From Squalus acanthias (taxonomy: Eukaryota), in NCBI GenBank assembly GCA_030390025.1, contig CM059432.1:88662001-88726000 (forward strand): DNA of 64,000 nucleotides. The letters run 5' to 3'. Positions 5,580 through 59,277 of this stretch are shown here, one piece after another. The translations under genes and the position numbers were made by a program. Position 1 is the stretch's first letter. The number at the start of each line of letters is the position of its first letter. Below the pieces are notes generated by a model that saw only the letters and a list, made by a program, of their open reading frames with translations, made no database searches and was not told the DNA's origin.

Positions 5580-8500
5580 GGTCTGAATTTTAATAGTTTG
5601 GCGGGTTGGGAGCGGGGGTGGGGCGGGATCAGAAGTGGTCGGGAAATCCGGGAGAACGGGTTTCCAACAGGCTCTGTAAAATTTAATGGCAGGACCTGAT
5701 TTGCATTGGAAATCTCTGTTTCTCACCTACAGCCACAGATTGATAAGCTGTCTGGCTGCATGTGGGTAGGCCTGGGCACTAGGCCTCAGGGAGGAGGGAG
5801 GGAGCGTTCATGAGGGGGCGGGGGGGGGGGTCGGGGGGGCCGGAGGAGCACGGGGGTGGGGGGTACCCAGAGGAGCAGGGGGGTCCAGACCGATTGGAGG
5901 GACGGAGGAGTGTGAGGGCGGTCGGGACTGATTGGAGGGCTGGAGGAGTGTGAGGGGGGTCGGGACTGATTGGAGGGTCGGAGTGTGAGGGGGGGTTGGG
6001 ACTGATTGGGGGGCTGGAGGAGTGTGAGGGGGGTCGGGACTGATTGGAGGGCTGGAGGAGTGTGAGGGGGGTCGGAACAGATTGGAGGGTCGGAGGAGTG
6101 TGAGGGGATCGGGACTGATTGGAGGGTCGGAGGAGTGTGAGGGGTGTCGGGACTGATTGGAGGGCTGGAGGAGTGTGAGGGGGGTCGGGACTGATTGAAG
6201 GGCTGGAGGAGTGTGAGGGGGGTCGGGACTGATTGGGGGGCTGGAGGAGTGTGGGGGTGTTGGGACTGATTGGAAGGTCGGAGGAGTGTGAGGGGTGTCA
6301 GGACTGATTTGAGGGCTGGAGGAGTGTGAGGGGGGTCGGGACTGATTGGAGGGTCGGAGTGTGAGGGGTGTCGGGACTGATTGGGGGGCTGGAGGAGTGT
6401 GAGGGGGGGTCGGGACTGATTGGAGGGTCGGAGGAGTGTGAGGGGGGTCAGGACTGATTTGAGGGCTGGAGGAGTGTGGGGGTGTTGGGACTGATTGGAA
6501 GGTCGGAGGAGTGTGAGGGGGGTCGGGACTGATTGGATGGTCGGAGGAGTGTGAGGGGGGTCAGGACTGATTGGAGGGTCGGAGGAGTGTGAGGGGGGTC
6601 GGGACTGATTGGAGGGTCGGAGGAGTGTGAGGGGGGTCAGGACTGATTGGAGGGTCGGAGGAGTGTGAGGGGGGTCCGGACTGATTGGAGGGTCGCAGGA
6701 GTGTGAGGGGGGTCGGGACTGATTGGAGGGTCGGAGGAGTGTGAGGGGGGTCAGGACTGATTGGAGGGTCGGAGGAGTGTGAGGGGTGTCTGGACTGATT
6801 GGAGGGCTGGAGGAGTGTGAGGGGGGTCGGGACTGATTGGAGGGTCGGAGGAGTGTGAGGGGGATCGGGACTGATTGGAGGGTCGGAGGAGTGTGAGGGG
6901 TGTCCGGACTGATTGGAGGGCTGGAGGAGTGTGAGGGGGGTCGGGACTGATTGGAGGGTCGGGGGAGTGTGAGGGGGGTCAGGACTGATTGGAGGGTCGG
7001 AGGAGTGTGAGGGGGGTCGGGACTGATTGGAGGGTCAGAGTGTGAGGGGGGTCGGGACTGATTGGAGGGTCGGAGGAGTGTGAGGGGGTTCAGGACTGAT
7101 TGGAGGGTCGGAGGAGTGTGAGTGGGGTCAGGACTGATTGGAGGGTCGGAGGAGTGTGAGGGGTGTCCGGACTGATTGGAGGGTCGGAGTGTGAGGAGGG
7201 TCGGGACTGATTGGAGGGTCGCAGGAGTGTGAGGGGGGGTCGGGACTGATTGGAGGGTCGGAGGAGTGTGAGGGGGGTCAGGACTGATTGGAGGGCTGGA
7301 GGAGTGTGAGGGGGGTCAGGACTGATTGGAGGGTCGGAGGAGTGTGAGGGGGGTCGGGACTGATTGGAGGGTCGGAGGAGTGTGAGGGGTGTCGGGACTG
7401 ATTGGAGGGCTGGAGGAGTGTGAGGGGGGTCGGGACTGATTGGAGGGTCGGAGGAGTGTGAGGGGGTCGGGACTGATTGGGGGGCTGGAGGAGTGTGGGG
7501 GTGTCGGGACTGATTGGAGGGTCGGAGGAGTGGGAGGGGGGTCAGGACTGATTGGGGGGTCGGAGGAGTGTGAGGGGGGTCGGGACTGATTGGAGGGTCG
7601 GAGGAGTGTAGTGGGGTTCGGGACTGATTGGAGGGTCGGAGGAGTGCGAGGGGGGTCGATACTGATTGGCGGGTCGGAGGAGTGTAGTGGGGTTCGGGAC
7701 TGATTGGAGGGTCGGAGGAGTGTGAGGGGGGTCGGGACTGATTGGGGGGCTGGAGGAGTGTGGGGGGGGGTCGGGAATGATTGGGGGGCTGGAGGAGTGT
7801 GAGGGGGGTCGGGACTGATTGGAGGGTTGGAGGAGTGTGAGGGGGCTCGGGTCTGATTGGAGGGCTGGAGGAGTGTGAGGGGGGCTCGGGACTGATTGGA
7901 GGGCTGGAGGAGTGTGAGGGGGTTCAGGACTGATTCGAGGGTCGGAGTGGGAAGGGGGTCGGGACTGATTGGAGGGACGGAGTGTGAGGGGGGTCGGGAC
8001 TGATTGGAGGGCTGGAGGAGTGTGAGGGGGGTCGGGATTGATTGGAGGGTCGGACGAGTGTGAGGGGGGTCGGGATTGATTGGAGGGTCGGAGGAGTGTG
8101 AGGGGGTCGGGACAGATTGGAGGGTCGGAGGAGTGTGAGTGGGGTCGGGATTGATTGGAGGGTCGGAGGAGTGTGAGGGGGCTCGGGACTGATTTGGGGC
8201 TGGAGGAGTGGGAGGGGGTTCAGGACTGACTTGAGGGTCGGAGTGGGAAGGGAGTCGGGACTGAATGGATGGTCAGAGGACTGTGAGGGGGGTCGGGACT
8301 GATTGGGGGGTCGGAGGAGTGTGAGGGGTTCGGGACTGATTGGTGGGTCGGAGGAGTGTGAGGGGTTCGGGACTGAATGGATGGTCAGTGGACTGTGAGG
8401 GGGGTCGGGAATGATTGGAGGTTCGGTGGAGTGTAAGGGGGTCGGGACTGATTGGAGGGACAGCGGAGTGTGAGTGGGGTCGGGACCGATTGGGTTCAGA

Positions 8501-11573: not shown

Positions 11574-13130
11574 GGACAGAGTTTTCCCCGAAAAAAAGAT
11601 CGGTTTGGAGTGTGGGGGCAATTACATTTTAAAAAATGGGCTTCCCAAACAAATTCCGCCCCTCAACCCGCCCACTTCCGATTTTAACTGAGACAGGATG
11701 GGGACGAGGAGGGGGACGGGGAGGGGGGTAGGCGACCAACCTGCTGCCAGGGTTCGGAACGTCAATTTAAATATTATAATGAGACTGGAAGCCTCTTTTT
11801 TAACGTCCATTTTGAATTTAACTGCATGTGGACGGGTTTCACACAATTCGTGAAACCCATCAGTTAAGTGAGGCAGGGACTCTTGCATCCAGGAGGTAGG
11901 TGACTTTATACCTACCTCCTGGATCTAGGGTCCCTCCCTAACCCACCCGCCGCAATCAGAGACCTCACCACGAGGCCTCTGCTCGCCTTCCTAGGTCTCC
12001 GGTCCCTGTCATGAGGCATCCCCTCCCACCCAACCAGTCCAGATCCTCTCTCTCCCCTCTACCGATCTCCGGCCTATACCCCCGCCGATCCCTAATCCCA
12101 GGCCGACCTACCCCTCCCTGCCGAACTTTTGCCGACCCCCCCACCCCGCCGAACCACGATCCTCCGGCCAACCACCCCCCACCCCAACGATCCCCGATCC
12201 TCCGACCCCCCCCACAATCCCCGATCCTCCAGCCCCCCCACAGTCCCCGATCCTCCGACCCCCCCACAATCCCTGATCCTCCGACCCCCCCCCACAATCC
12301 CCGATCCTCCGACCCCCCCACAATCCCCGATCCTCCGACCCCCCCACAATCCCCGATCCTCCGACCCCCCCCACAATCCCTGATCCTCCGACCCCCCCCA
12401 CAATCCCCGATCCTCCGACCCCCCCACAATCCCCGATCCTCCGACCCCCCCCCACAATCCCCGATCCTCCGACCCCCCACAATCCCCGATCCTCCGAACC
12501 CCCCCCCCACAATCCTCGATCCTCCGACCCCCCCCACAATCCCCGATCCTCCAACCCCCCCCACAATCCCCGATCCTCCGAACCCCCCACAATCCCCGAT
12601 CCTCCGACCCCCCCCACAATCCCCGATCCTCCGAACCCCCCACAATCCCCGATCCTCCGACCCCCCCCACAATCCCTGATCCTCCGACCCCCCCCCCACA
12701 ATCCCCGATCCTCCGAACCCCCCACAATCCCCGATCCTCCGACCCCCCCCACAATCCCCGATCCTCCGAACCCCCCACAATCCCCGATCCTCCGACCCCC
12801 CCACAATCCCCGATCCTCCGACCCCCCCCACAATCCTTGATCCTCCGACCCCCCCCCACAATCCCCGATCCTCCGACCCCCCCACAATCCCCGATCCTCC
12901 GACCCCCCCCCACAATCCCCGATCCCCAGCCGCCCCCCTGATTCTCGACGGACTCCCCCACACAATCCCTGTGCCCTCCACGATCCCTGACGACACCCCC
13001 TATCCTTCCCCAGACCGAAACCTCGCTCCCTCTCTGCAGCTGCAGGCCTACCCACCCGCAGCCAGCCAGCCTCTCAATCTGGCTGGCTGTGGGCGGGAAA
13101 CCGAGGCCTCATGTGCAAATCAGGCCCTGC
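11574..13130. mobile_element. MITE-like insertion in CR1 (left TIR only) carrying a minisatellite
   Basis: Starts GGACAGAGTTTT where CR1 homology stops; CCCGCC motifs; a CR1 3' tail resumes at ~13135. Confidence 0.5.
12190..12925 (+). repeat. C-rich minisatellite, 26-29 bp unit, roughly 27 copies
   Basis: Unit TCCTCCGA-C(n)-ACAATCCCCGA with variable C-run length. Confidence 0.95.
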
Positions 13131-46411: not shown

Positions 46412-46751
46412 AACGTGATCAAGTCTCTTGAGTGGGGCTCAAAGCACAATCTTCTGACTTAGAGGCAAGCGTGCGACCACTCAGCCAAGGCTGACAACTA
46501 GAAGATCAATAGGAGTCAAGGAGAAACTATGCAATTTCATCAAAGAAAACCACAATGTGTGAGTAGCAGACTCTTTCGACAAGCACAGTTTACAGAAAGA
46601 ATTGGTAAGTACATTGCTATAGAGAGCCAAGTAACTTAATAGTCACCTGCCAACAGAAAATTGCACAGATACAGAAGCATGGCATTGATTAATAAATAAA
46701 AATGAGAAGTCGCACAACACCAGGTTATAGTCCAACAGTTTTATTTGAAAT

Positions 46752-46786
46752 TACGAGCTTTCGGAGCGCTGCTCCTTCGTCAGGTA
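46752..46786 (-). ncRNA. Minimal type I hammerhead ribozyme (left pLTR)
   Basis: - strand TAC-CTGACGA-A-GGAGC(AGC)GCTCC-GAAA-GC-TC-GTA. Confidence 0.8.
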
Positions 46787-47780
46787 CAGTGAAGGAATAC
46801 AAATCAGTTACAAAGCATATATAAAAATGAGAAGTCGCTATAGATAGAGAACAATGTGTCTGCAGAGATACAATCTGTCAGGGAGGCATTACATCAAAGA
46901 CACAGCAGAATACAGCTAAGACAATGAGGTGGGGTCACAGGGGGTCCAACGTGTCAAATGCTGCAGTCTGCAGTTAAGCTTTTTACTTTTTTTTAAAACT
47001 GGAAATCACATCTGTGAACAGGACAATGATGACTCTAGTCTGGACTCTAGTCTCGACTCTAGTCATGTCCTGTAGTGTGACATGAAACCGAGATCCCGGT
47101 TGAGGTCGTCCTCATGGGTGCGGGTCTTGACTATCAATTTCTGCTCGATGATTTTGCGTTGTCGTGTGTCTCGAAGGCCACCTTGGAGAACGCTAATCCG
47201 CAGATCCGAGGCTGAATGTCCTTGACTGCTGAAGTGTTCCCCGACTGAGAGGTAACAATCCTGCCTGGCGATAGTTGCGCAGTGTCCGTTCATACGTTGT
47301 CTCAGTGTCTGCATGGTCTCGTCGATGTACCATGCTGTGGTGCATTCTTTCCTGCAACGTATGAGGTAGACAACGTTGGCCGAGTCACATGAGTATGTAC
47401 CATGTACCTGGTGGGTAGTGTCCTCACGTGTGATGATGGTATCTGTGTTGATGATCTGGCATGTCTTGCAGAGGTTGCCGTGTCAGGGTTGTGTGGTGTC
47501 ATGGTCGCTGTTCTCCTGACAGCTGGGTAATTTGCTGCGAACGATGGTACTTTTGAGGTTAGGCAGCTGCTTGAAGGCGAGTAGTGGAGGCGTGGGGATG
47601 GCCTTAGCAAGGTGTTTGTCGTCATCGATGACATGTTGAAGGCTGCGAAGAACATGGCGTAGTTTCTCCGCTCCGGGGAAGTACTGGACGATGTAGGGTA
47701 CTCTGTTGGTTGTGTCCCATGTTCGCCTTCTGAGGAGGTCTATGCGATTTTTCGCAGTGGCCCGTCGGAACTGTCGATCA

Positions 47781-48880
47781 ACGCTGTACACCAGATACAT
47801 CGATGACATTTTCTTCCTTTGGACCCGCGGCGAAGGATCACTGAAAGGGCTACACGATAACATCAACAAGTTCCATCCCACCATCAAACTCACCATGGAC
47901 TACTCCTCAGAATCGGTTTCATTCTTGGACACACGAATCTCCATCAAAGACAGACACCTCGGCACTTCACTCTACCGCAAGCCCACGGACAACCTCACCA
48001 TGCTCCACTTCTCCAGCTTCCACCCTAACCACGTTAAAGAAGCCATCCCCTATGGACAAGCCCTGCGAATACACAGAATCTGCTCAGACGAGGAGGAACG
48101 CGATGGACACCTACGGACACTGAAAGACGCCCTCGTAAGAACGGGATATGACGCTCAACTCGTCGATCGACAGTTCCGACGGGCCACAGCGAAAAATCGC
48201 ATAGACCTCCTCAGAAGGCGAACACGGGACACAACCAACAGAGTACCCTACGTCGTCCAGTACTTCCCCGGAGCGGAGAAACTATGCCATGTTCTTCGCA
48301 GCCTTCAACATGTCATCGATGATGATGAACACCTTGCTAAGGCCATCCCCACACCACCACTACTCGCCTTCAAGCAGCCGCCTAACCTCAAAAGTACCAT
48401 CGTTCGCAGCAAATTACCCAGCTGTCAGGAGAACAGCGATCACGACACCACACAACCCTGCCACGGCAACCTCTGCAAGACATGCCAGATCATCAACACA
48501 GATACCATCATCACACGTGAGGACACTACCCACCAGGTACATGGTACATACTCATGTGACTCGGCCAACGTTGTCTACCTCATACGTTGCAGGAAAGAAT
48601 GCACCACAGCATGGTACATTGGCGAGACCATGCAGACACTGAGACAACGTATGAACGGACACTGCGCAACTATCGCCAGGCAGGATTGTTACCTCTCAGT
48701 CGGGGAACACTTCAGCAGTCAAGGACATTCAGCCTCGGATCTGCGGTTAGCGTTCTCCAAGGTGGCCTTCGAGACACACGACAACGCAAAATCATCGAGC
48801 AGAAATTGATAGTCAAGACCCGCAACCATGAGGACGACCTCAACCGGGATCTCGGTTTCATGTCACGCTACAGGATGTGA
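47781..48880 (+). pseudogene. Penelope ORF, 5'-truncated: RT C-terminal part and GIY-YIG endonuclease
   Basis: YTRYIDDIF (RT catalytic motif), FLDT, LYRKPTD, NVVYLIRC...WYIGET. 1-nt deletion near 48746 relative to the inverted copy. Confidence 0.9.
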
Positions 48881-49449
48881 CTAGAGTCGAGACTAGAGTC
48901 CAGACTAGAGTCGTCATTGTCTTGTTCACAGATGTGATTTCCAGTTTAAAAAAAAATGTAAAATGCTTAACTGCAGACTGCAGCATTTGACACGTTGGAC
49001 CCCCTGTGACCCCACCTCATTGTCTTAGCTGTATTCTGCTGTGTCTTTGATGTATTGCCTCCCTGACGGATTGTACCTCTGCAGACACATTGGGGTAGAA
49101 ATTAGGTCGCGCCCCATTTGGGGCGCAAATATCGTCTGGACGCAAATATTAGCGCCTGGCGCTAATTATCGGCACTGACTGGAAACTTCACTTTTACCGC
49201 CCCGGGAGGTGAGTGGAGCGCTAAAGCAGGTGCTGCACACCTGTCTTAAGGCGCAAAGGCCAAGGAGTGAGGCGCTAACTCAGCGCGCGAGCGCAGCACA
49301 ACTGCTGCCAGTTAGCGAGGGAACACAGACACACTGGCGCCGGACACTTCTTAAAGTGGGGGGGGCCACTTGCTCCCCAGCCACACCCTGCTCATTGCAG
49401 CCTTGAATCTCAGCCTGGAGAGACCTGTGAATCCATTTTGCTGCCAAGC

Positions 49450-51334
49450 ATGGGGAGGGTGAGAGAACGCGCTCATCGCTTCACCGAGCGGGCCTTGGAT
49501 GCTTTGGTTGGCGCAGTGGAGCGCAGACGATGTATGCTGTTCCCTGAGAGTGGCAGAAGGCCTTTGCCACGCGAGTTCAGAAGAGTGTGGAGGGAGGTGG
49601 CTCAGAGCGTCTCCTCCAGGAGCATGGTGCCCAGGACCCATACTCAATGCCGCAAAAAGTTCAACGACCTCACTCGGGTCGTCAGGGTGAGTGGCTTTTT
49701 CTCAATACCTCTCCATCCCTCCATCTGAACCTCACTCTATGGCCAGAGGGTCTTAAAACCCCAATGCACAACACTCATCCAACACCTATGGCCCTTTCAT
49801 TAAACACACACACACATTCCACACTTTGCATTCAGTAAGGGCTATTCACCTATGGGAGGCACATCAGGCAACACCATGGCTGTATATTGTAAGGGCTATT
49901 CAGCTATGGGAGGCACATCAGGCAAGACCATGGCTGTATATTGTAAGGGCTATTCACCTATGGGAGGCACATCAGGCAAGACCATGGCTGTATATTTACT
50001 CAGATGCTGTCCTTTTTCTTGCAGGCTAAGCTGGCTCATAATAGGAGACAGCAGCAACGGACAGGTGGAGGGCGGCCTCAGCTGCAACCCCTCAGCGATC
50101 TTGACGAGCGCATCCACAGGATTGTGGCAAGCCGGGTGATCGGTCCCGTCGCCACTGGAGACGCCGACCCCGTTCTGGACAGCAATGGTAAGGTCATCAC
50201 CTTTTTGTCCTCTGTCCTTCCACTTGTCCCTCACAACACCAGCCTTTGACACTTTCAATACAACTTGCTAACTCGCTGCACTTATTCCTCCCTTACTGCC
50301 ACCCTGTCCTCACGCTAAAGCCACTCTTGTACCTCCCTGCTTTCAGATGGTGATTCACCAGCTGAGGAGACGGGCCCTGAAGCTGCCACTGGGAGTGATG
50401 CTGCAGCTGAGGAGGAAGAGGAAGCCAGAGCATCAGTGCCACCCTCTCCCGAGGAAGCCCATGCCCACACTGGGAACACGCCTTCCCCGGAGGGGAGCAG
50501 GGGGGAAGGGTCTGATGAGGGTGAAGCTCCAGGACCCAGCTGGCTGCAGCAACGCCATGGGGGGGGGGGGGGGGTAGGGAAGAACGGGGGCCTTCTCCCC
50601 AGAGGGAGAGTATGCCAGACACTCCTACTGCAATGGACGCAGAGGAGGAGCGGCTGATTGCAGAAATGAACACCCAGGCGGTGGGCATGCACACTGAGCT
50701 CATGGGTGCAGTGGGAAGGGTGCCCGAATGCATTGAGTCACTGGCAAGGAGTGTGGAGCACTTCGCTGTAGCACAGGCGGATGCCACACTAACGCTTAGT
50801 GCTGCAATTCAGTCACTGGCTGCCGTGATCCCATCTCTGACTGCTCTCATACAGACTCAGATGGAGGCCATGCGAGCACAGACTGCTGCCAACCTCGATG
50901 GTTCGTGCACATGTCCCCGGGGCTGTCACCGCGCTGCAGCAGGCCAGCAATCTGTTCTCCGGCAGATTGCTCCGGATGCTGAAGTGCTGCCCCGTGGGAG
51001 TGCCAGTGTGTCGGGCGAGCAGGGAGTTGCTGTCCTCTCTCACGATGACAGCATTCCTGCTGCCAACACTGTCACTTCTCCACTGCACTTGCCACCGCCT
51101 GTAGGACAGACTGCTGCCGCCCATGCAGAGTTGGTGCAGTCTGCAGCCGGGCCCTCCAGGCCCAGAAGTAGTCGAGGCCGTCCTTCAGGGGCATCTGCAG
51201 TGTCAGGGTCTGACGAGCAGCAGCCTTCCACCAGCCTTGCTGCAGCCACTGAGGTCCCATTACGGAGGAGCAGTAGGGTTAGAAGGGGGGAAGTGCGCAA
51301 GGGAAGGAGATCACCCTCGAAGGGCAAAAAGTAG
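49450..51334 (+). CDS. Harbinger Myb/SANT-like partner, exons 49450-49686, 50025-50187, 50347-51334; one frame break in a G16 run
   Basis: GT-AG junctions keep frame (phases 0 and 1). RERAHRFTERALDALV...WREVA...QCRKKFNDLTRVVR|AKLAHNRRQQQRTGGG. Frames before and after 50559-50574 are each open. Confidence 0.75.
49835..49996 (+). repeat. 3 x 54-bp tandem repeat in Myb intron 1
   Basis: Units start at 49835, 49889 and 49943: GTAAGGGCTATTCACCTATGGGAGGCACATCAGGCAACACCATGGCTGTATATT. Confidence 0.92.
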
Positions 51335-51628
51335 GAGGTGTGACAAAATACTGGTCATTTTTTAATTAAAGGCCGAGGTTCATGGTCCAACTTTTGTTTA
51401 GTGTTTTGGACATTATCTCCAGGTTGTGAGAACCAGTTATGTTATTGACTGTTTTTTTGTGTTTATTTCTATGAGTTTGTCATGAGGAATTGACACACAC
51501 AGAGTTTGTAAAATAAATAAGTTTCTGTATTCAAAATATACATGGCTGGTGGTTGGAATTATTGGTGCCTTGGCCGGCTTAGGGGTTGCGTGCTGGGTTG
51601 ATTAATGTTGGTAGCAATGGCAGGGGCC

Positions 51629-52789
51629 CTAGAAGCGGCTTGCTATTAGCCGTTGACGGACGGCCCTTGCAGTTTGACCATTGTGGGCCGCCCTCTCGCC
51701 TTGGTGCTGCTGATGATCATCATCCTCGTCCTCTTCCTCCTCTTCCTCCTCCTCCTCTGGTGGTGCTACAAGGCCTGGTGGCATTGGCTGGCTCCTGAGG
51801 ATTGCCATGTTGTGCAACATGCAGCACACGACTACGAAGTTCGATACTTGCTCAAGCGAGTACTGCAGGGCTCCTCCGGAATGGTCCAGACAGCGGAACC
51901 GTTGTTTCAGCACGCCGATTGTGCGCTCAATAATGTTCCTGGTTGCTTGATGGCTTTCATTGTACCGCAGCTCAGCAGGGGTGTTTGGCGTACGGAGCGG
52001 TGTCATCAGCCAGGTGCTCAATGCGTACCCCTTGTCCCCGAGAAGCCAACCAACTGGCTGATGCGGTGCCTCGAAAAGTTCTGCCACAGTAGTCTGGCGC
52101 AGGATAAAAGCATCGTGGCAGCTGCCAGGATAGTGGGCATTGACAGCGAGTATCAGCTGTCTGTGGTCACAGACCAACTGGACATTCAAGGAATGGAACC
52201 CCTTTCTGTTCCTGAATTCCTCTGCATTCTCACGCGGAGCACGCAAAGCCACATGCGTGCAGTCAATGGCGCCCTGCACCATGGGGAAGCCCGCTACCCT
52301 CGCAAAGCCCAGAGCGCGGTCACGCTGCTTGTCTGGGGTCATAGGGAAAGAGATGAACTCTCGTCTCCTTCTGAAGAGGGCATTTGTGACCTGCCGGATG
52401 CAGCGATGCACCGCGAACTGGGAGATATTGGCGAGGTCCCCAACAGCAGCTTGGAATGAGCCAGTGGCGTAGAAGTTCAAAGCCACTGTGACCTTCACTG
52501 CCACCGACAGAGACGTCCTGGACCTCAGTTGAGGCTGCAGATCTGGCTGCAGCAGGTGGCAGAGCTCAGTGACCACCTCCTTGCTGAATCGCAGCCTTCG
52601 CAAACACAGCTCCTCGGACATATGGATGTAGGAGAGCTGTTCACGATATACCCTGGGAGGGTAAGCTCTCCTGTACATGCGCCTGATGGCCCTCCTCCGT
52701 CTGGCCATCATTGCCACTCTCTCTCTGCATCTCTGTATCCTCCGATTCAGCTGGAGCAGGACGACGCCCCCAATCAGTGCAGCCCCCAT
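51629..52789 (-). CDS. Harbinger DDE transposase, uninterrupted 386-aa ORF
   Basis: ATG 52789 (MGAAL) aligns with MGAVL of copy E. GAIDCTHV, YPGSCHDA, LLGDKGY and IERTIGVLKQRF motifs are all intact. Confidence 0.93.
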   Translation of the reverse strand: MGAALIGGVVLLQLNRRIQRCRERVAMMARRRRAIRRMYRRAYPPRVYREQLSYIHMSEELCLRRLRFSKEVVTELCHLLQPDLQPQLRSRTSLSVAVKVTVALNFYATGSFQAAVGDLANISQFAVHRCIRQVTNALFRRRREFISFPMTPDKQRDRALGFARVAGFPMVQGAIDCTHVALRAPRENAEEFRNRKGFHSLNVQLVCDHRQLILAVNAHYPGSCHDAFILRQTTVAELFEAPHQPVGWLLGDKGYALSTWLMTPLRTPNTPAELRYNESHQATRNIIERTIGVLKQRFRCLDHSGGALQYSLEQVSNFVVVCCMLHNMAILRSQPMPPGLVAPPEEEEEEEEEDEDDDHQQHQGERAAHNGQTARAVRQRLIASRF

Positions 52790-53351
52790 ATTCTCTTTGC
52801 AAGAAAAGTAATGAGGGACAGCCACTAAAGTAGCAACAAAGTTAGGATGAATAGGCAAAACTACCTCACAAAGCGTTGAGTCAATGTAGAAGTCTCTCTC
52901 TCTCTCTCTCCGAATCTCTCTCTCTCTCTCAGAACGAGTGGTGCATAAATGTCGACCACAGAAAAAGACAGGAAGAGGCCCCCTTTAAATTGCGCCCCCC
53001 CCCAGCCCCACAGCGATTGATAGCGTTCCAGTCTTCCGGTCGTTGGAAGCGCCAGGCGGTAAGGCAGGGGGCGCCACTCAATTTCCGCTCCGGGGCGCCC
53101 CAAGGGCGTTGCACCATGGAATGACGTCATAATCTGCGCGCGCAGGTGGTCACAGCGGTAAGTTTTAGCGCCGCCGCACAATCTCTGGTTAAGTTCTCGA
53201 GCGGCGCAAACATCGCTGCGCCCGGGCGTTAGCGGCTTTGCGCCCCATTAGCGCCCTCTTAAGGCGCTAACGGGAGGCGCAACCAACTGAATTTTTACCC
53301 CATTGTTCTCTGTCTATATATGCTTTGTAACTGATTTGTATTCCCTCACTG

Positions 53352-53386
53352 TACCTGACGAAGGAGCAGAGCTCCGAAAGCTCGTA
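53352..53386 (+). ncRNA. Minimal type I hammerhead ribozyme (right pLTR)
   Basis: TAC-CTGACGA-A-GGAGC(AGA)GCTCC-GAAA-GC-TC-GTA; predicted cleavage after C53383. Confidence 0.8.
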
Positions 53387-55050
53387 ATTTCAAATAAAAC
53401 TGTTGGACTATAACCTGGTGTTGTGCGACTTCTCATTTTTCTCCACCCCAGTCCAACACCGGCATCTCCGCATCTTGATTAATAAATAGGAAGAGTTGCA
53501 ACACATATATGTATAATACTCATTATAAAATCAAGACATCTGAAAGATTATTTGTTTAAAGCTGGTTGATCACTCTTTACATATCTACAATACTCTTGCT
53601 AAAATACAACAGTTTTAGGTGTGGCGAATGCACAATATTTGAATTTAGATAGTAATTGCTATGAGATGTAATGGATGGTCAGACATTCTGATATCAGGAC
53701 AGAAAAACAACCTATATAATATACACTAGGAAAATAAGCTGGATTGATTTGTTTAGTCAAATGTATTTCTGAGATTTGGCACGTGAGACGTCTTGCAAAT
53801 TGATGCAAAAACATTTCAGCACTAGTCACCGATCACCAGTGCTGAGCCAGTCGTTGGTTTATGTTGGTGATATCCGGTTTCAACAAATGGATTTGGGGGT
53901 CTTTCTTTGTCTTTTTTATCCAATTTGCACCAGAATAATTTACTTGTGACCATTAGCAGGATAAATCGGCAAAATTTGATTGGATTTGTACAGAACAAAT
54001 ACTGCAGTGTAACTGGTGCTTAAGATAGAAAATAAAAATAATTGTCTTACAAGTATTTATTTTCCTATCCTCTTAAAGATGTTCTGGGGTTGAACTAATC
54101 ACATACATTGTTTCTGAAATGATTTGCTTGTTGGTGAAGTGCTGTCGTTGAGTAGCTCTGCGACATTAATAAAACACACTAGATTTTCGTTTAGCTGCTA
54201 AAGCAACTCTGTTTCCATCAAGCATGTCTCAGGTTTTCATGAAGAAATTCGAGTGGTAGAGGTGAAAAATGACTTTTCTCACCCGGTCATCTGTCTGTCG
54301 TGTATTAGTCAGGACAGTGTTTGTCCTGAAGTGTATCATTCTGAAGTTGTTAGGTATGCAATATGCTCAATGTAAGTCCATCAGACTCTGCAAAGTTGAT
54401 TAGAACAGATCGCCTTTCAGAAAAGGTGCAGGTTATCTCAACAGATTGACTGAAGAAGACTAATCATAAGCATATGTTTAGAAAAGGAACAAATCTTAAT
54501 TTTGCAGTTCGATGCATATGGGGGCAAATACCAGAGACCTTCACTCCTCACCACGCTGGAGTCTCTGGGGTTAGTGAGGTATCAAGGGGGAAAAATTCAG
54601 TTGGTTCGTGCCTTTAGTTAGTGCCTGGTGGGGGCGCTAATGGGGCGTTGAGGCAGTAGCGCTGGGGCGAGGTGAATCCAGCGCCGAACGCCAAATCAGC
54701 CGGGGACCTCAGCGCCAGGCAGATTGTGACGCCAGTGCAATGCTCACTGGGCGCCCGATCTGCAAAATTCATTGTCACCCGCTGCCTTAGTGCCTCGCCC
54801 CGACAGCGACAGGGAGAGGAGGCGTCACGCAGGCAGATGCCGGCTCCAGGGGCGCTACTTAAAGGGATCATGAGTAATGAGTGGCAGCTGTCAGGTGAGT
54901 GCTGTTTCACTGCTTCCTTGTCAGTTTGACATTGTGTAACAGTTTAATTCAGTTATTTAAAGGTTATTTAGCATCAGGAGTGTTGTGGCTACTAACAATT
55001 AGTTACATTTATTCTCACAACATATCAAAGTGCTACACTTCATTACATTA

Positions 55051-56135
55051 ATGGGGGCTGTACTGGCAGTCGACCTCACCATCCAGGATCTACTGCGGAG
55101 AGAGCGGAGGCAGCGAGAAAGATTGGAACATGTGGCTAGAGGGAGGAGAAGGGCCATCAGGGCTCTCAACAGGAGGCCTTACCCGCCGAGGGTATTCCGA
55201 GAGCACTTCTCCTACCTCCAATTAAGCAAGGAGCAGTGTATTAGAAGGCTCCGCTTCAGCAAGGAGGTGATCACAGAACTCTGCCACCTCCTGCAACCAG
55301 ACCTCCAGCCTCAGATCAGGGCAACCACAGCTCTCTCAGTGGCAGTCAAGGTCACCGTCACCCTCAATTTCTTCGCCAGCGGATCCTTCCAGTCTGCAAC
55401 AGGAGATATAGCTAACATCTCGCAGTTCGCCGTCCATCGCTACATCCGGGAGGTCACAGAGGCTCTCTACAGTAGGAGAAGGAACTACATTTCCTTCCCC
55501 ATCACCAGAGAAAAGCAGGACGAACATGCATGTGGCTTTGCCAGGATAGCAGGATTCCCCATGGTGCAGGGCACCATTGACTGCACCCACGTGGCTTTGT
55601 GGGCACCGCATAACAATCTTGAGATCTTCCGTAACTGCAAAGGCTGCTACTCACTTAATGTGCAGTTGGTGTGCGACCACAGACAGCGAATCCTCAATGT
55701 GAATGCCAGCTATCCTGGCAGCAGCCATGATGCCATCATCCTGCGCTAGAACGGTGTGCCAGCACTCTTCCAGCCACCATGTCAAGCCCGTGGCTGGCTG
55801 ATCGGAGACAAGGGTTATCCGCTCTCCACCTGACTCATGACTCCCCTCTGCAATCCCAACACTCCTGCCCAGCACTCATATAATGAGAGCTCTGCCACCA
55901 CCAGGAACATCATTGAGCAGACCATTGGCCTGCTCAAGCAACGGTTCCGCTGCCTTGACTGCTCAGGAAGAGCCCCTCAGTACTCGGCTAAGCGGGTGTC
56001 CCATTTCGTCGTGGTCTGCTGCATGCTCCACATCTTGGCCATCATGAGGGCCCAGCCCTTGCCACCAGGGATTGCGGGACCACCTCAGGAGGAGGAAGAG
56101 GGAGAGGGGAAGGAGGAGAAGGTCAAGGAGGAAGA

Positions 56136-56166
<31 letters not shown>

Positions 56167-56253
56167 TATCAGGAGCAAAGGAGAAGGCAGCCACTCAATC
56201 GGCCTTCTGGAAGGGTGGTCAGTGACCGCCACATCAGACTGCGGTTCCAATGA
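55051..56253 (+). pseudogene. Harbinger transposase, single frame with two nonsense codons (55747 TAG, 55831 TGA)
   Basis: GTIDCTHV, YPGSSHDA, LIGDKGY and [12 protein letters not shown] motifs; long acidic tail. Confidence 0.9.
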
Positions 56254-56408
56254 ATTAAACCCCAGATCACCACATCCCCATCATTCCATCCCTGTTGCAG
56301 GTCATATCACAGTGCAAAGCTGAAATGAGAGACACCACAAAATAATCCAAACTGAATTAATAAATTTATCAATAATTAGTGAACACATATTTACAACAAC
56401 AATATTAA

Positions 56409-58291
56409 CTATTCACCCTTGTGCAATCCCTTAGCGCCTCTCTTTACTGTGCCTTTGCCTACTCTAGTGCTCCTACGAAGTGTTGGCCCAGAGGCTGCAG
56501 CAGGGCTGGTAGAAGGCTGCTGAGTGTCCGGATGGGAGACTTCAGATGGCCTTGCAAGATGCCCTTGACCAGCTCTGGGCCTGGAAGGCCCGGCTGTAGA
56601 CTGCACCCTCAGCAGGGGCAGCAGCAGTCCGGGCTGGCTGGATGACAGGCAGCGACAAGGACAATGGTGGAGTGGCAGTGGTGGGAGTAGGAATGCTGTC
56701 ATCCTGAGAGAGGACAGCAGGTTCCTGCTCCACTGACCCACTGCCACTTCCCCGGGGAAGCACCTCAGCATCCCTAGCAATCTGCTGCGACACCATGAAA
56801 GCCCCGGGTCGACGGTGGTAGACCCAGCCACGATGGTATCAGTCACAGCTTGCGTTGCATCAAGCTGAGACTGCATGAGAGCAATCTGAGATTGGATGCC
56901 ACCAAGCATAGACTGCATTACAGCACTAAGACGTTGCATCACTTCCGCCTGTGCTGCAATGGAAGCTGCCAGATCGCCCATCACACGCGGCATCAGGTCT
57001 GGGTCGCCACGGTCTCTCTGGGAGTCTACCATCCTTTGCAGACTGGAAATGATGGGCTCCACGGTGGGCGCAGAGCCTTGTGCAATGTTGGAGGCGAACT
57101 CCTCCACGCTCCTCACCATTGCCAAGAGGCTCTCGGCCACCCTTGCCATTGAACCTATCATCTTCGTGTGCATGCCCATCACCCTTCTTCTAAAGGCCTC
57201 CCCTTCGAGGTCCTCATCTGAGTCCTGTGCAGCAGAACTCACGTGCAAAGTCGCCCTCCGGGGAGCTGCCCCCGAGCTACCCTTTCTTCCCTGGCCTTGC
57301 TGCAGCCCGCTCGTCTCCGGTGCCTCACCCTGTGCAGATCCCGCTAATATACTAACCTCTAAAGAACGCGTAGGTGCCAGCATCTGAGCTGGTGCCTGCG
57401 TTTGAGACATGCAGTGATGCGGTGTGTTCTTCCTCCTCTTCATCTCCCGCCTCGCTCTCAACGGTACCCTCAGGGACAGGTTGCTCAGGTGCTTGCTCAT
57501 TATCTGAATGCATAAAGGAACAAGATTCGGGTTAAGGTGAGGGAAGGGAACAGGAAGGCAGAAAGGCATGCATACATCATGTTTAGCTGGAAAGTGCGAA
57601 AGGCTTGTGGGGTAAGGGGGAAGTGGGATGTGGTAAGAAGGAGTAGGGATGAACATACTGTTGTTGTCCCCAAGGGGGTCAACGTCACCAGTGGCCATGG
57701 TGCCAACCACCTGGCGCCCAATAATCTGCAGCACTCAAGTCTCTAGCTCAGACAGTGGTTGGGTGTCGGCTTGTCCCCCACCTGTGTGTTCTTGCTCCCT
57801 CCTGTTGTGAGCCACCTTGGCCTGCAAGAGAAAGGAAAGTGTGTGAGTGAGTGTGGAGCAATGTGTTTGGGTGATGTGCCTGCCATAGTTGAATAGCTGT
57901 CATTGTGTGCAAGTTGTGAGATGTGGGTGCGTGTGTTAGTAGGTAAAGATTGTTGGTGAGTGAGCGCTGTGGGTGTAATGCTTTGGGCAGTGTGTGCAGA
58001 CTGTGGTTCAGATGATGGTATGTAGCATTTGTTGAAGCATTGACTCACCCTGACCACCTGAGTGAGGTCGTTAAATTTCTCCCTGCACTGTGTGTGGGTT
58101 CTGGGGACCACAGTGCTGCCCAAGATATGCTGGGCTAGCTCCCTCCACGTGGTGCGGAAGACTTGTGGCGAGGGTGTCCTGCCACTTGCCAGGTTGAGCA
58201 CCGCCCTCCGTCTTTCCACTGCGAACACCAAGGCCTCCAATGCATTGTCGCAGGATCTGCGGGCTCTCTCCCTGGGGCGTGGATCTGCCAT
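56409..58291 (-). pseudogene. Harbinger Myb/SANT-like gene (exons 58291-58049, 57821-57659, 57503-56409)
   Basis: Exon 2 is 163 nt as in copy F but has a stop; frameshifts in exon 3. Confidence 0.85.
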
Positions 58292-59277
58292 CATTACTGC
58301 TGCTTGAGTTGTCTGGCTCCATCTCCTTGACCTGCTGCTGCTGGCTGAGATGGCTGCACAGCCAGCAATGATGAGAATGAGGTTCTGCAGCATCAATGAA
58401 CCTTCCCTTTAAGTACTGGAAAGAGCCTGTGGCAATGATGACTTGTGATTAAACTTCACCTGATATTGGTCAGTGCTTCGAGTTTAACACCACTGAGCTA
58501 GGCCATTAATGCTTGAGTTAGCGCTCCAATTCTTTCTTTGTGCAATGAGACTGAATTTTGCCTGACGCTAATTCTCAAACTTTTCAAAAGTTACCGCCCA
58601 TTCCTTGGCTATAATGAATTTCTACCCCCAACTGTTTAACAGATATTGGGCAAGGTGCCCAGCCATTATCCGAACATCTTGGACGTTCACTACGGGGCCG
58701 CGGGGGGAATGGGGAATGCAGCTCCGGATGGCCGCATGTTGGGCTCTTTCCCTCAAAGTGCAGGAAGAGAGGTAGACCATCCCTCTCGTTAGGTAGGTTC
58801 AACAGGGAACAATATCCTTACTTTTCAATGTGCCATAATGCCAACCTGGAGATCCAAGTGGGTCCTACTTCAGTCCCTTGGCAGAATTGTATGCCGAGTT
58901 TATCCTGGCTGAGGAAATTACCAGCATGGTAGATCCCTCTACTCAACCCCCCCACCTTCAACATTGTAGACCATATTTCAGGCATGTGGAACCTCCACTC
59001 ACCTCAGGCCACGATTTTACCATCGGCGGCGGGTTGGAGTCGGGTTGGCTGTTTGGCGGGTTCCGGTCCCGCTGCCGGTTTCAGCCGCTCTGTATTAAAG
59101 ATTTTCCCTTCACTGGGCTTATTAAGCCCGTCGTGCGCGTTGCCCGGCCCAATCAGGGGGTTCGGGTCTGCTGCTCGCCTCTGCTGACGTCTTCCATCCA
59201 GCTGCATTTAAGGGGCCCATGCAGCCTTGTGGTTTTTCATTCACATTCTGCTGCTTCTCAGTATTACTGATAGCGAG

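What the first reader, a model, noticed from the sequence alone, without database searches (positions are those of the whole stretch)
49092..53301. Candidate autonomous two-gene Harbinger, broken only by one G-run
Seen: both TIRs, a perfect TSD, an uninterrupted 386-aa transposase with all three D/D/E motifs, and a three-exon Myb gene whose splice phases work. The only visible lesion is G16 at 50559-50574. With G14 or G17 the frame reads through (..QQRHGGGG-GREERGPSPQRESMPDTPTAMDAEEE..) to the stop at 51334, matching exon 3 of copies B and E. Established: Harbinger transposition needs both the transposase and the Myb-like DNA-binding protein. Inference: this copy may be active or trivially revivable, and the run may be an assembly error or a slippage-prone on/off switch.
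Basis: partly seen in the sequence, partly recalled or inferred. Interest (0 to 1): 0.72.

Follow-up and report, generated by a model that had tools for sequence, protein, structure and literature searches.

The report
Decaying shark Harbinger copy, G-run frameshift
This is a real, full-length cut-and-paste (Harbinger) transposon from a very abundant family in a shark-like genome, but its long G-run is an 11-base expansion of the family's short in-frame run and the copy carries other changes of its own, so it looks like ordinary decay, not an active element or a built-in switch.

Summary
The anatomy is confirmed: 4,210 bp, TIRs (11/12), ATT duplication proven by an empty site in the window, an open 386-aa DDE transposase, and a three-exon Myb gene cut to 236 aa by G16. 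The interpretation mostly fails. A deep contig from a public run of the family has G5, in frame, and three related elements in the window are 10-11 nt shorter there, so G16 is an expansion, not a family feature. The run is not the only lesion: 19 of 35 listed in-element differences are near-fixed in the family but differ here, 7 of 9 coding ones change an amino acid (as expected without selection), including transposase P312L. The family is very high-copy, so the Myb protein could come from other copies and a switch here would matter little. Still open: the true run length at this locus (no raw reads; G14 or G17 would be in frame), splicing, and whether any family member is active. A contig break just after G5 hints that longer runs exist in a minority of molecules. 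The scan reported the same situation before on other DNA of this genome (e1-7789957). New member of a known kind; low interest.

The parts
49089..49091 (+). [quoted passage not shown]
   Evidence: one ATT at the empty site in the other arm
49092..49103 (+). Left terminal inverted repeat (12 bp, begins GGGG)
   Evidence: 11 of 12 match the right TIR
49104..49391 (.). Left subterminal region with 6 copies of a GCGC[T/A]AA motif; candidate Myb binding sites (inference)
   Evidence: 11 copies in the two 300-bp ends against a mean of 0.57 and a maximum of 4 in 2000 first-order Markov simulations; none in the interior
49450..49686 (+). Myb gene exon 1 (Myb/SANT trihelix domain)
   Evidence: PF13873 E=6.2e-9; GT donor also present in window elements A, B and E
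49826..49996 (+). Three tandem copies of a 54-bp unit in intron 1
50025..50187 (+). Myb gene exon 2
   Evidence: acceptor kept in A and E, donor kept in A, B and E
50347..51334 (+). Myb gene exon 3, frameshifted at the G-run; premature stop at 50655-50657, original stop at 51332-51334
   Evidence: the part after the run is predicted as about 90 residues of helix plus a disordered basic tail (single sequence)
50559..50574 (+). G16 run; the family's main path has G5
   Evidence: table 4 and record 10 (248-nt contig, depth 220.5, 11 letters left out, 2 other differences); (44 nt here against 33, 33 and 34 nt in A, E and B)
51629..52789 (-). DDE transposase, 386 aa, open frame, convergent with the Myb gene; D176/D252/E288; differs from the family at R21C and P312L (V165I is a majority, not near-fixed, difference)
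53002..53289 (.). Right subterminal region with 5 copies of the GCGC[T/A]AA motif
53290..53301 (-). Right terminal inverted repeat
53302..53304 (+). Right copy of the target-site duplication, ATT
46698..47783 (-). Inverted arm of the host repeat, holding the empty target site; dates the insertion
   Evidence: 30 mismatches in 1066 aligned positions (2.8%), gaps of 1, 1 and 19
47784..53440 (+). Host Penelope-like retroelement fragment (reverse-transcriptase end, GIY-YIG, 3' repeat) into which the Harbinger inserted
   Evidence: ORF 47697-48809 with YIDD; GIY-YIG E=4.8e-4, 20.8 bits, below the 22.6 cut-off; the Penelope label rests on recalled architecture and note e1-7805368

Best explanation
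A full-length copy of a very high-copy elasmobranch Harbinger family, inserted by cut-and-paste into the 3' part of a Penelope-like repeat and decaying without selection since. The family works like zebrafish Harbinger3_DR (inferred from homology, not assayed): the Myb protein binds subterminal motifs and brings in the DDE transposase, which excises the element and inserts it at a loosely preferred 15-bp site with a 3-bp duplication. In this copy, or a small branch leading to it, the family's G5 grew to about 16 G, presumably by replication slippage once the run had lengthened (inferred). The gene now gives a 236-aa product that keeps the DNA-binding domain and loses the long helix and basic tail. 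The copy is non-autonomous as assembled, but its ends could still be moved in trans, and its transposase frame is open, with unknown activity.
For: Shown: TIR, TSD, empty site, two genes. G5 on a contig of depth 220.5, in the range of that run's other main-path contigs (53-292) and above its minor ones (7-19). Window relatives are 10-11 nt shorter. No row for a 1-3 nt change of the run reached 5% in any of the 3 runs with coverage (table 4). 40,785 and 62,858 contigs were laid in two DNA runs, which means many copies. 19 of 35 listed in-element differences are at least 85% 'other letter' in all three runs; 7 of the 9 coding ones are nonsynonymous, against 0.756 expected without selection (P=0.62) and P=0.019 under dN/dS 0.2. 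Position 312 is P in 85 of 106 close and 91 of 121 more distant homologues with a residue there. Divergence lies between 0.45% (lower bound) and 1.4% (half the arm divergence).
Against: G5 rests on one contig, 220.5 of 1014.3 summed depth at that place, with 25 letters left of the run, under the tool's 31-letter bridging rule. No contig of X1 or X2 was laid across the run with a gap. That contig starts exactly where a 31-letter word first includes the base after G5, which suggests other molecules continue differently there. Only 40 of 208 difference rows were shown, picked by support, so 7:2 is a small, non-random sample. Contigs drop rare alleles, so 'private' may mean 'minor subfamily'. L312 also occurs in 5 of 106 and 11 of 121 homologues and three window relatives have A there, so P312L may be tolerated. 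The transposase frame and all three catalytic residues are intact and the model folds well (pLDDT 91.7).
Confidence: 0.74

Rival explanations
1. The run is long but really in frame (G14 or G17), through a 1-2 base consensus error or a segregating length allele. The copy then encodes a full Myb protein with 3-4 extra glycines in a loose linker and may be autonomous.
For: Long homopolymers are a main class of residual assembly error even with HiFi reads (PMC12212083, passages). The transposase frame is open. The run lies in a low-complexity linker where extra glycines could be tolerated (inference).
Against: Only one in three run lengths is in frame. The copy still carries 7 amino-acid changes against the family among the listed rows. 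No 1-3 nt length variant reached 5%, although a single copy would be far below that level.
Confidence: 0.12
2. The long run marks a small subfamily: a frameshifted copy that multiplied in trans, so G16 and several 'private' changes were inherited and this insertion is younger than its divergence suggests.
For: The contig break just after G5 implies another continuation in run X13; among the five other main-path contigs, ends fall in the same way on listed forks at 49428, 51251-2, 52297 and 52851. The window's letter keeps thousands of depth units at some near-fixed sites.
Against: At several sites the window's letter has a residual depth of 0-70, the level of a single copy or none (51855, 52823, 51350, 49301). 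The other continuation could be a substitution rather than a longer run.
Confidence: 0.07
3. G16 is wholly an assembly artefact and the locus has G5.
For: The family has G5, G5 is not a slippage-prone length (general knowledge), and no record shown displays G16.
Against: An 11-base overcall is far larger than the usual homopolymer error (recalled, not tested). The fork after G5 suggests longer runs exist in independent data. Contigs drop single-copy alleles, so the lack of a G16 record says little.
Confidence: 0.03
4. The run is a selected slippage switch: length changes flip the element between making a full Myb protein and a truncated, DNA-binding-only form that occupies the ends and damps transposition.
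For: The premature stop lies in the last exon and the 236-aa product keeps the whole Myb domain. A 16-G run is mutable (general knowledge). There is a possible length fork in the family.
Against: The main family path and three other families have a short run. A switch in one copy among many intact-frame sisters has little leverage. The coding changes look unselected.
Confidence: 0.04

Closest known systems
Harbinger3_DR / Harbinger3N_DR of zebrafish (reconstructed; seen only through passages of PMC2836001, PMC3016246, PMC9392472 and the introduction of PMC9179366; the primary paper was not held)
   Same: Two separate genes, DDE transposase and Myb-like protein; short TIRs; 3-bp TSD. This site matches 8 of the 12 flanking bases of its 15-bp target consensus.
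   Different: The central triplet is ATT here, not CWG. This is a natural, frameshifted copy, not a consensus, and no activity is shown. No direct sequence comparison with Harbinger3_DR was made.
Harbinger-Snek of sea kraits (PMC8437027, abstract and Results part 1 of 2 read)
   Same: Massive expansion of a two-gene Harbinger in a marine vertebrate, with many complete copies, of which some are intact and many keep only one good gene.
   Different: That element came by horizontal transfer and has intact copies (269 in one species). Here the transposase groups with elasmobranch proteins only among 25 chosen rows, and intact copies were not counted.
Unnamed elasmobranch Harbinger transposases annotated 'putative nuclease HARBI1' (Pristiophorus, Narcine, Mobula, Heptranchias and others)
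   Same: Best protein matches, 65% over 90% of the length, E=1.7e-156; they share a 19-row elasmobranch group in the tree.
   Different: None of the 120 listed (of 375 hits) exceeds 66% identity, so this family is not among them. The name HARBI1 is an automatic label.
NuwaI and PIF/Harbinger groups of the PHIS scheme (PMC4482050, passages and Results part 1 of 2 read; supplements not opened)
   Same: DDE plus Myb/SANT genes, length near 4.1-4.5 kb, TIR starting GGG as in NuwaI.
   Different: The TSD is neither TWA nor CWG at this site. ATT fits the Pangu pattern ANT, but Pangu's second gene has no known domain.

Membership tests
PIF/Harbinger superfamily (broad sense, PHIS) | DDE transposase of the Harbinger type with the catalytic triad | tested here: met
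   Pfam DDE_Tnp_4; D176 98/117 and 108/129, D252 94/116 and 112/128, E288 76/116 and 109/128 in homologues
PIF/Harbinger superfamily (broad sense, PHIS) | Second, separate gene with a Myb/SANT domain | tested here: met
   PF13873 above its cut-off; gene model
PIF/Harbinger superfamily (broad sense, PHIS) | Terminal inverted repeats and a 3-bp TSD confirmed by an empty site | tested here: met
PIF/Harbinger superfamily (broad sense, PHIS) | Myb protein binds the ends and the transposase; both needed for transposition | not testable with these tools
   Only a candidate motif was found; the requirement comes from PMC2836001 and PMC9392472 passages
Potentially active family (criterion of PMC4482050), applied to this copy | Both reading frames intact | tested here: not met
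   Myb frame ends at 236 of an expected 458 aa as assembled; true run length unverified
PIF/Harbinger group in the narrow sense (PMC4482050) | TSD 5'-TWA-3' | tested here: not met
   ATT here; TTG around window element E
NuwaI group (PMC4482050) | TSD 5'-CWG-3' | tested here: not met
   ATT at this site; TIR start GGG and the Myb gene do fit
NuwaI group (PMC4482050) | Transposase falls in the Nuwa clade | not tested
   No named Nuwa sequences were in hand; the tree has none
Pangu group (PMC4482050) | Second gene without a known domain (with ANT TSD) | tested here: not met
   The TSD fits ANT but the second gene has a Myb domain
Domesticated HARBI1/NAIF1-type host genes | Single copy, no TIRs or TSD | tested here: not met
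   TIRs, TSD and tens of thousands of laid contigs
Slippage-based on/off switch | Long run kept across the family | tested here: not met
   G5 on the main path; short in A, B, E
Slippage-based on/off switch | Run length varies among molecules at this locus | tested here: inconclusive
   No raw reads laid (X21: 0 reads); a fork after G5 is inferred from a contig end

The most novel reading that the evidence does not exclude
The G-run is length-variable across this shark Harbinger family and works as a slippage switch: in-frame lengths give the full Myb helper, out-of-frame lengths give a truncated DNA-binding protein that competes for the element ends, in a family that is still transposing. That would be self-regulation by repeat slippage in a naturally active vertebrate Harbinger. 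A milder version (the family has intact G5 copies and is still active, with no switch) I put at about 0.2.
Probability: 0.04. Interest if true: 0.65.

Novelty: new member of a known kind. Interest (0 to 1): 0.22.

Why it matters
The copy itself matters little. The family is of some use. PMC9179366 (passages) found no Harbinger in elephant shark and asked for other cartilaginous fish to be checked; PMC12498223 (one passage) already lists Tourist/Harbinger as the commonest DNA transposons in a reef shark. A young, very high-copy two-gene family with an in-frame main path gives an easy consensus for a second vertebrate Harbinger transposition assay with an extended target preference. In 2010 Ping and Pong were called the only naturally active members (PMC2836001, abstract passage), so proof of current activity in a shark would be notable; nothing here shows it.

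Tried and rejected
No whole genome is held, so no copy census, consensus or per-copy run lengths. Run search: no RNA holder listed. The one raw RNA run laid (X21, another organism label) gave 0 reads: no test. X13 is only guessed to be RNA; its 458-nt contig crosses the first donor unspliced, and neither predicted junction is among the 15 joints shown of 73, so splicing is inconclusive. Empty-site joints say nothing on insertion polymorphism, since the flank is itself a high-copy repeat. Zero residual depth for this copy's letters in X1 and X2 does not show absence, since contigs drop rare variants. Metagenome scans for the run's flanks and for the transposase found nothing. The Myb part after the run had no protein hit among 8000 candidates; exon 1 found 1 longer relative among 150 candidates, whose match to the C-terminal part is negligible (E=0.032); the Atlas gave only sub-0.9 unnamed hits. 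Foldseek against PDB: 0 matches at E<=0.001, best rows were other DDE/integrase folds. Complex prediction of transposase 1-340 with the post-run helix: no verdict, score 0.01. Rfam: 0 matches in 46500-54700, so no hammerhead model supports the host repeat. A paper search for slippage switches in DNA transposons (4 of 5 terms required) returned 0, too narrow to show absence from print. Look-ups of earlier findings by sequence, relatives, words and 'near' gave nothing. Rejected: domesticated gene (TIRs, many copies); excision from the other arm (less parsimonious; precise excision cannot be excluded).
Full report
**Observation.** The element runs from 49092 to 53301. Its ends match at 11 of 12 bases and are flanked by ATT on both sides. 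It sits in one arm of an inverted duplication, and the other arm (46698-47783) has the same site with a single ATT and no element. The minus-strand frame 52789-51629 gives 386 aa with no stop, matches DDE_Tnp_4, keeps D176, D252 and E288 and folds confidently (mean pLDDT 91.7). The plus-strand gene has three exons with GT..AG introns at the stated positions. Its splice sites are mostly kept in three other elements of the window that are only 65-76% identical, which supports the gene model. G16 is at 50559-50574 and ends the product at 236 aa.

**Host and family.** The best protein matches are shark and ray proteins labelled 'putative nuclease HARBI1', at most 66% identical among the 120 listed of 375 hits. 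In a tree of 25 chosen rows the transposase falls in a 19-row group of elasmobranch and window sequences. The genome is therefore shark-like (inference). Of 23 runs listed, 20 hold part of the stretch, under six organism labels and ten studies, at word shares of 0.42-0.80; only organism A was confirmed by laying. In two DNA runs of organism A, 40,785 and 62,858 contigs lay on the stretch, covering all 30 bins. That depth is not a copy number, but it shows a very abundant family.

**The G-run.** In run X13 a 248-nt contig spans 50534-50792 with 11 letters left out at the run and two other differences, so it reads G5, which is in frame. Its depth (220.5) is in the range of the run's other main-path contigs (53-292) and well above the minor ones (7-19). 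Elements A, E and B have 33, 33 and 34 nt where this copy has 44. The short form is thus the older state, and G16 is an expansion. Limits: this is one contig, with 25 letters left of the run; no contig of X1 or X2 was laid across the run with a gap; and no raw read of this organism was seen. The contig begins exactly where a 31-letter word first includes the base after G5. Ends of other contigs in that run fall on listed forks in the same way (49428, 51251-2, 52297, 52851). So some molecules in X13 probably continue differently after G5, either a longer run or a substitution (inference; the 31-letter word size of the contigs is recalled). This makes a purely artefactual run less likely and leaves a minor long-run branch possible.

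**Other lesions.** One search showed 40 of 208 difference rows, chosen by support; 35 lie inside the element, and the 5 in the flanks were dropped. In 19 of the 35, at least 85% of the depth in all three covered runs has another letter. Nine of these are coding: 7 change an amino acid and 2 do not. Without selection 75.6% would be expected to change one (P=0.62 for 7 or more of 9); under dN/dS 0.2, P=0.019. In the transposase the changes are R21C (R in 19 of 25 homologues with a residue) and P312L (P in 85 of 106 close and 91 of 121 more distant homologues). Residue 312 starts the helix that carries the conserved LHN motif. L occurs there in 5 and 11 homologues and A in three window relatives, so the effect is unknown.

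**Age.** The 19 differences give a floor of 0.45%. Word shares of 0.75-0.80 imply 0.7-0.9% if spread evenly, and six long X13 contigs differ at 29 of 1617 positions (1.8%), probably an overestimate. The host arms differ at 30 of 1066 positions; if they were identical at birth and not converted since, the insertion is younger than 1.4% divergence. At the epaulette shark rate of 7e-10 per base per generation (PMC10587355, abstract) even 0.45% is about six million generations. That figure is rough: it is another species, CpG sites change faster, and some differences may be inherited. The copy is young by sequence but probably not a fresh insertion.

**How it most likely works.** Shown: two convergent genes, TIRs, a 3-bp duplication, and 11 copies of GCGC[T/A]AA within 300 bp of the ends against 0.57 expected. 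From the literature: both proteins are needed, and the Myb protein binds the ends and carries the transposase into the nucleus (PMC2836001 and PMC9392472, passages; the primary paper was not held). Inferred: the motif is the Myb site; the family prefers a 15-bp target like that of Harbinger3_DR (PMC3016246, passage), matched at 8 of 12 flanking bases here, where about 3 are expected by chance. The frameshift removes about 90 residues of predicted helix and a basic tail; whether that part binds the transposase is unknown. As assembled the copy cannot make its own full helper, but could be moved by sister copies.

**Rivals.** A true length of 14 or 17 (0.12): long homopolymers are a common residual error (PMC12212083, passages), but only one length in three is in frame. 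A small long-run subfamily (0.07). A wholly artefactual run (0.03). A selected switch (0.04): the stop is in the last exon and the Myb domain survives, but the family does not keep a long run and the copy shows no sign of selection.

**Comparison and novelty.** It is a PIF/Harbinger element in the broad sense and works like Harbinger3_DR. It fails the TSD tests of the narrow PIF/Harbinger (TWA) and NuwaI (CWG) groups of PMC4482050 and has the Myb domain that Pangu lacks, so I do not file it in a subgroup; that paper's supplements were not opened and may list families with other TSDs. Large two-gene Harbinger expansions with intact and half-broken copies are published for sea kraits (PMC8437027). 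Two searches for Harbinger with shark or elasmobranch terms listed 5 and 3 papers, none of which, by title, abstract start or the passages read, describes this family; Repbase and Dfam could not be checked. Earlier notes of this scan report a near-intact copy with a frameshifted Myb gene elsewhere in this genome (e1-7789957) and other decaying copies (e1-7789976); I did not check those loci. PMC12498223 was seen as one passage.

**Verdict.** Observation confirmed, interpretation partly supported. An ordinary young copy in decay; new member of a known kind; interest 0.22.

Noticed in passing
window 53403-53405 (host repeat): Joints in runs X1 and X2 link the element's ends to this triplet of the host repeat (53301 to 53403, 53404, 53405; 53404 to 49092), so other copies of the family sit at one spot of the same repeat, about 100 bp from this insertion. 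The spot matches 8 of 12 flanking bases of the zebrafish target. Agrees with the hot spot of note e1-7805368.
   Followed up: partly
window 46698-47783: The empty arm has a 19-nt insertion a few bases downstream of the ATT target, copied from the end of the same repeat; it looks like a templated repair insert.
   Followed up: no
window 1-64000: Dense Harbinger cluster: Myb exon-1 matches at eight places (about 1134, 16107, 27353, 32020, 40440, 49450, 58279, 59308) and transposase matches at six loci, most with stops or frameshifts.
   Followed up: partly
proteins P0004/P0005, P0011/P0012, P0024/P0025/P0065, P0039/P0041: Harbinger transposases from distant sharks and rays pair up with very short branches: candidates for domesticated genes or horizontal transfer in elasmobranchs.
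   Followed up: no
window 54586-58628 (element E): A second full-length element with both TIRs and a TTG duplication lies 1.3 kb downstream in the opposite orientation; both its genes are broken.
   Followed up: partly
protein P0008: A 523-aa sawshark protein carries both Myb_DNA-bind_5 and DDE_Tnp_4; probably a gene-model fusion, but a natural fusion was not excluded.
   Followed up: no
window 53344-53375: The host repeat holds a hammerhead-like motif (recalled pattern: conserved core, short hairpin, GAAA); Rfam gave no match.
   Followed up: partly
window 52995-53003 and 49358-49365: Two more runs in the element (C9, G8) differ from family contigs by one base or an adjacent substitution, so run-length drift is not limited to the Myb exon.
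   Followed up: no
window 5804-7459 and 12126-12962: Tandem arrays with units of about 38 bp and 26-27 bp.
   Followed up: no
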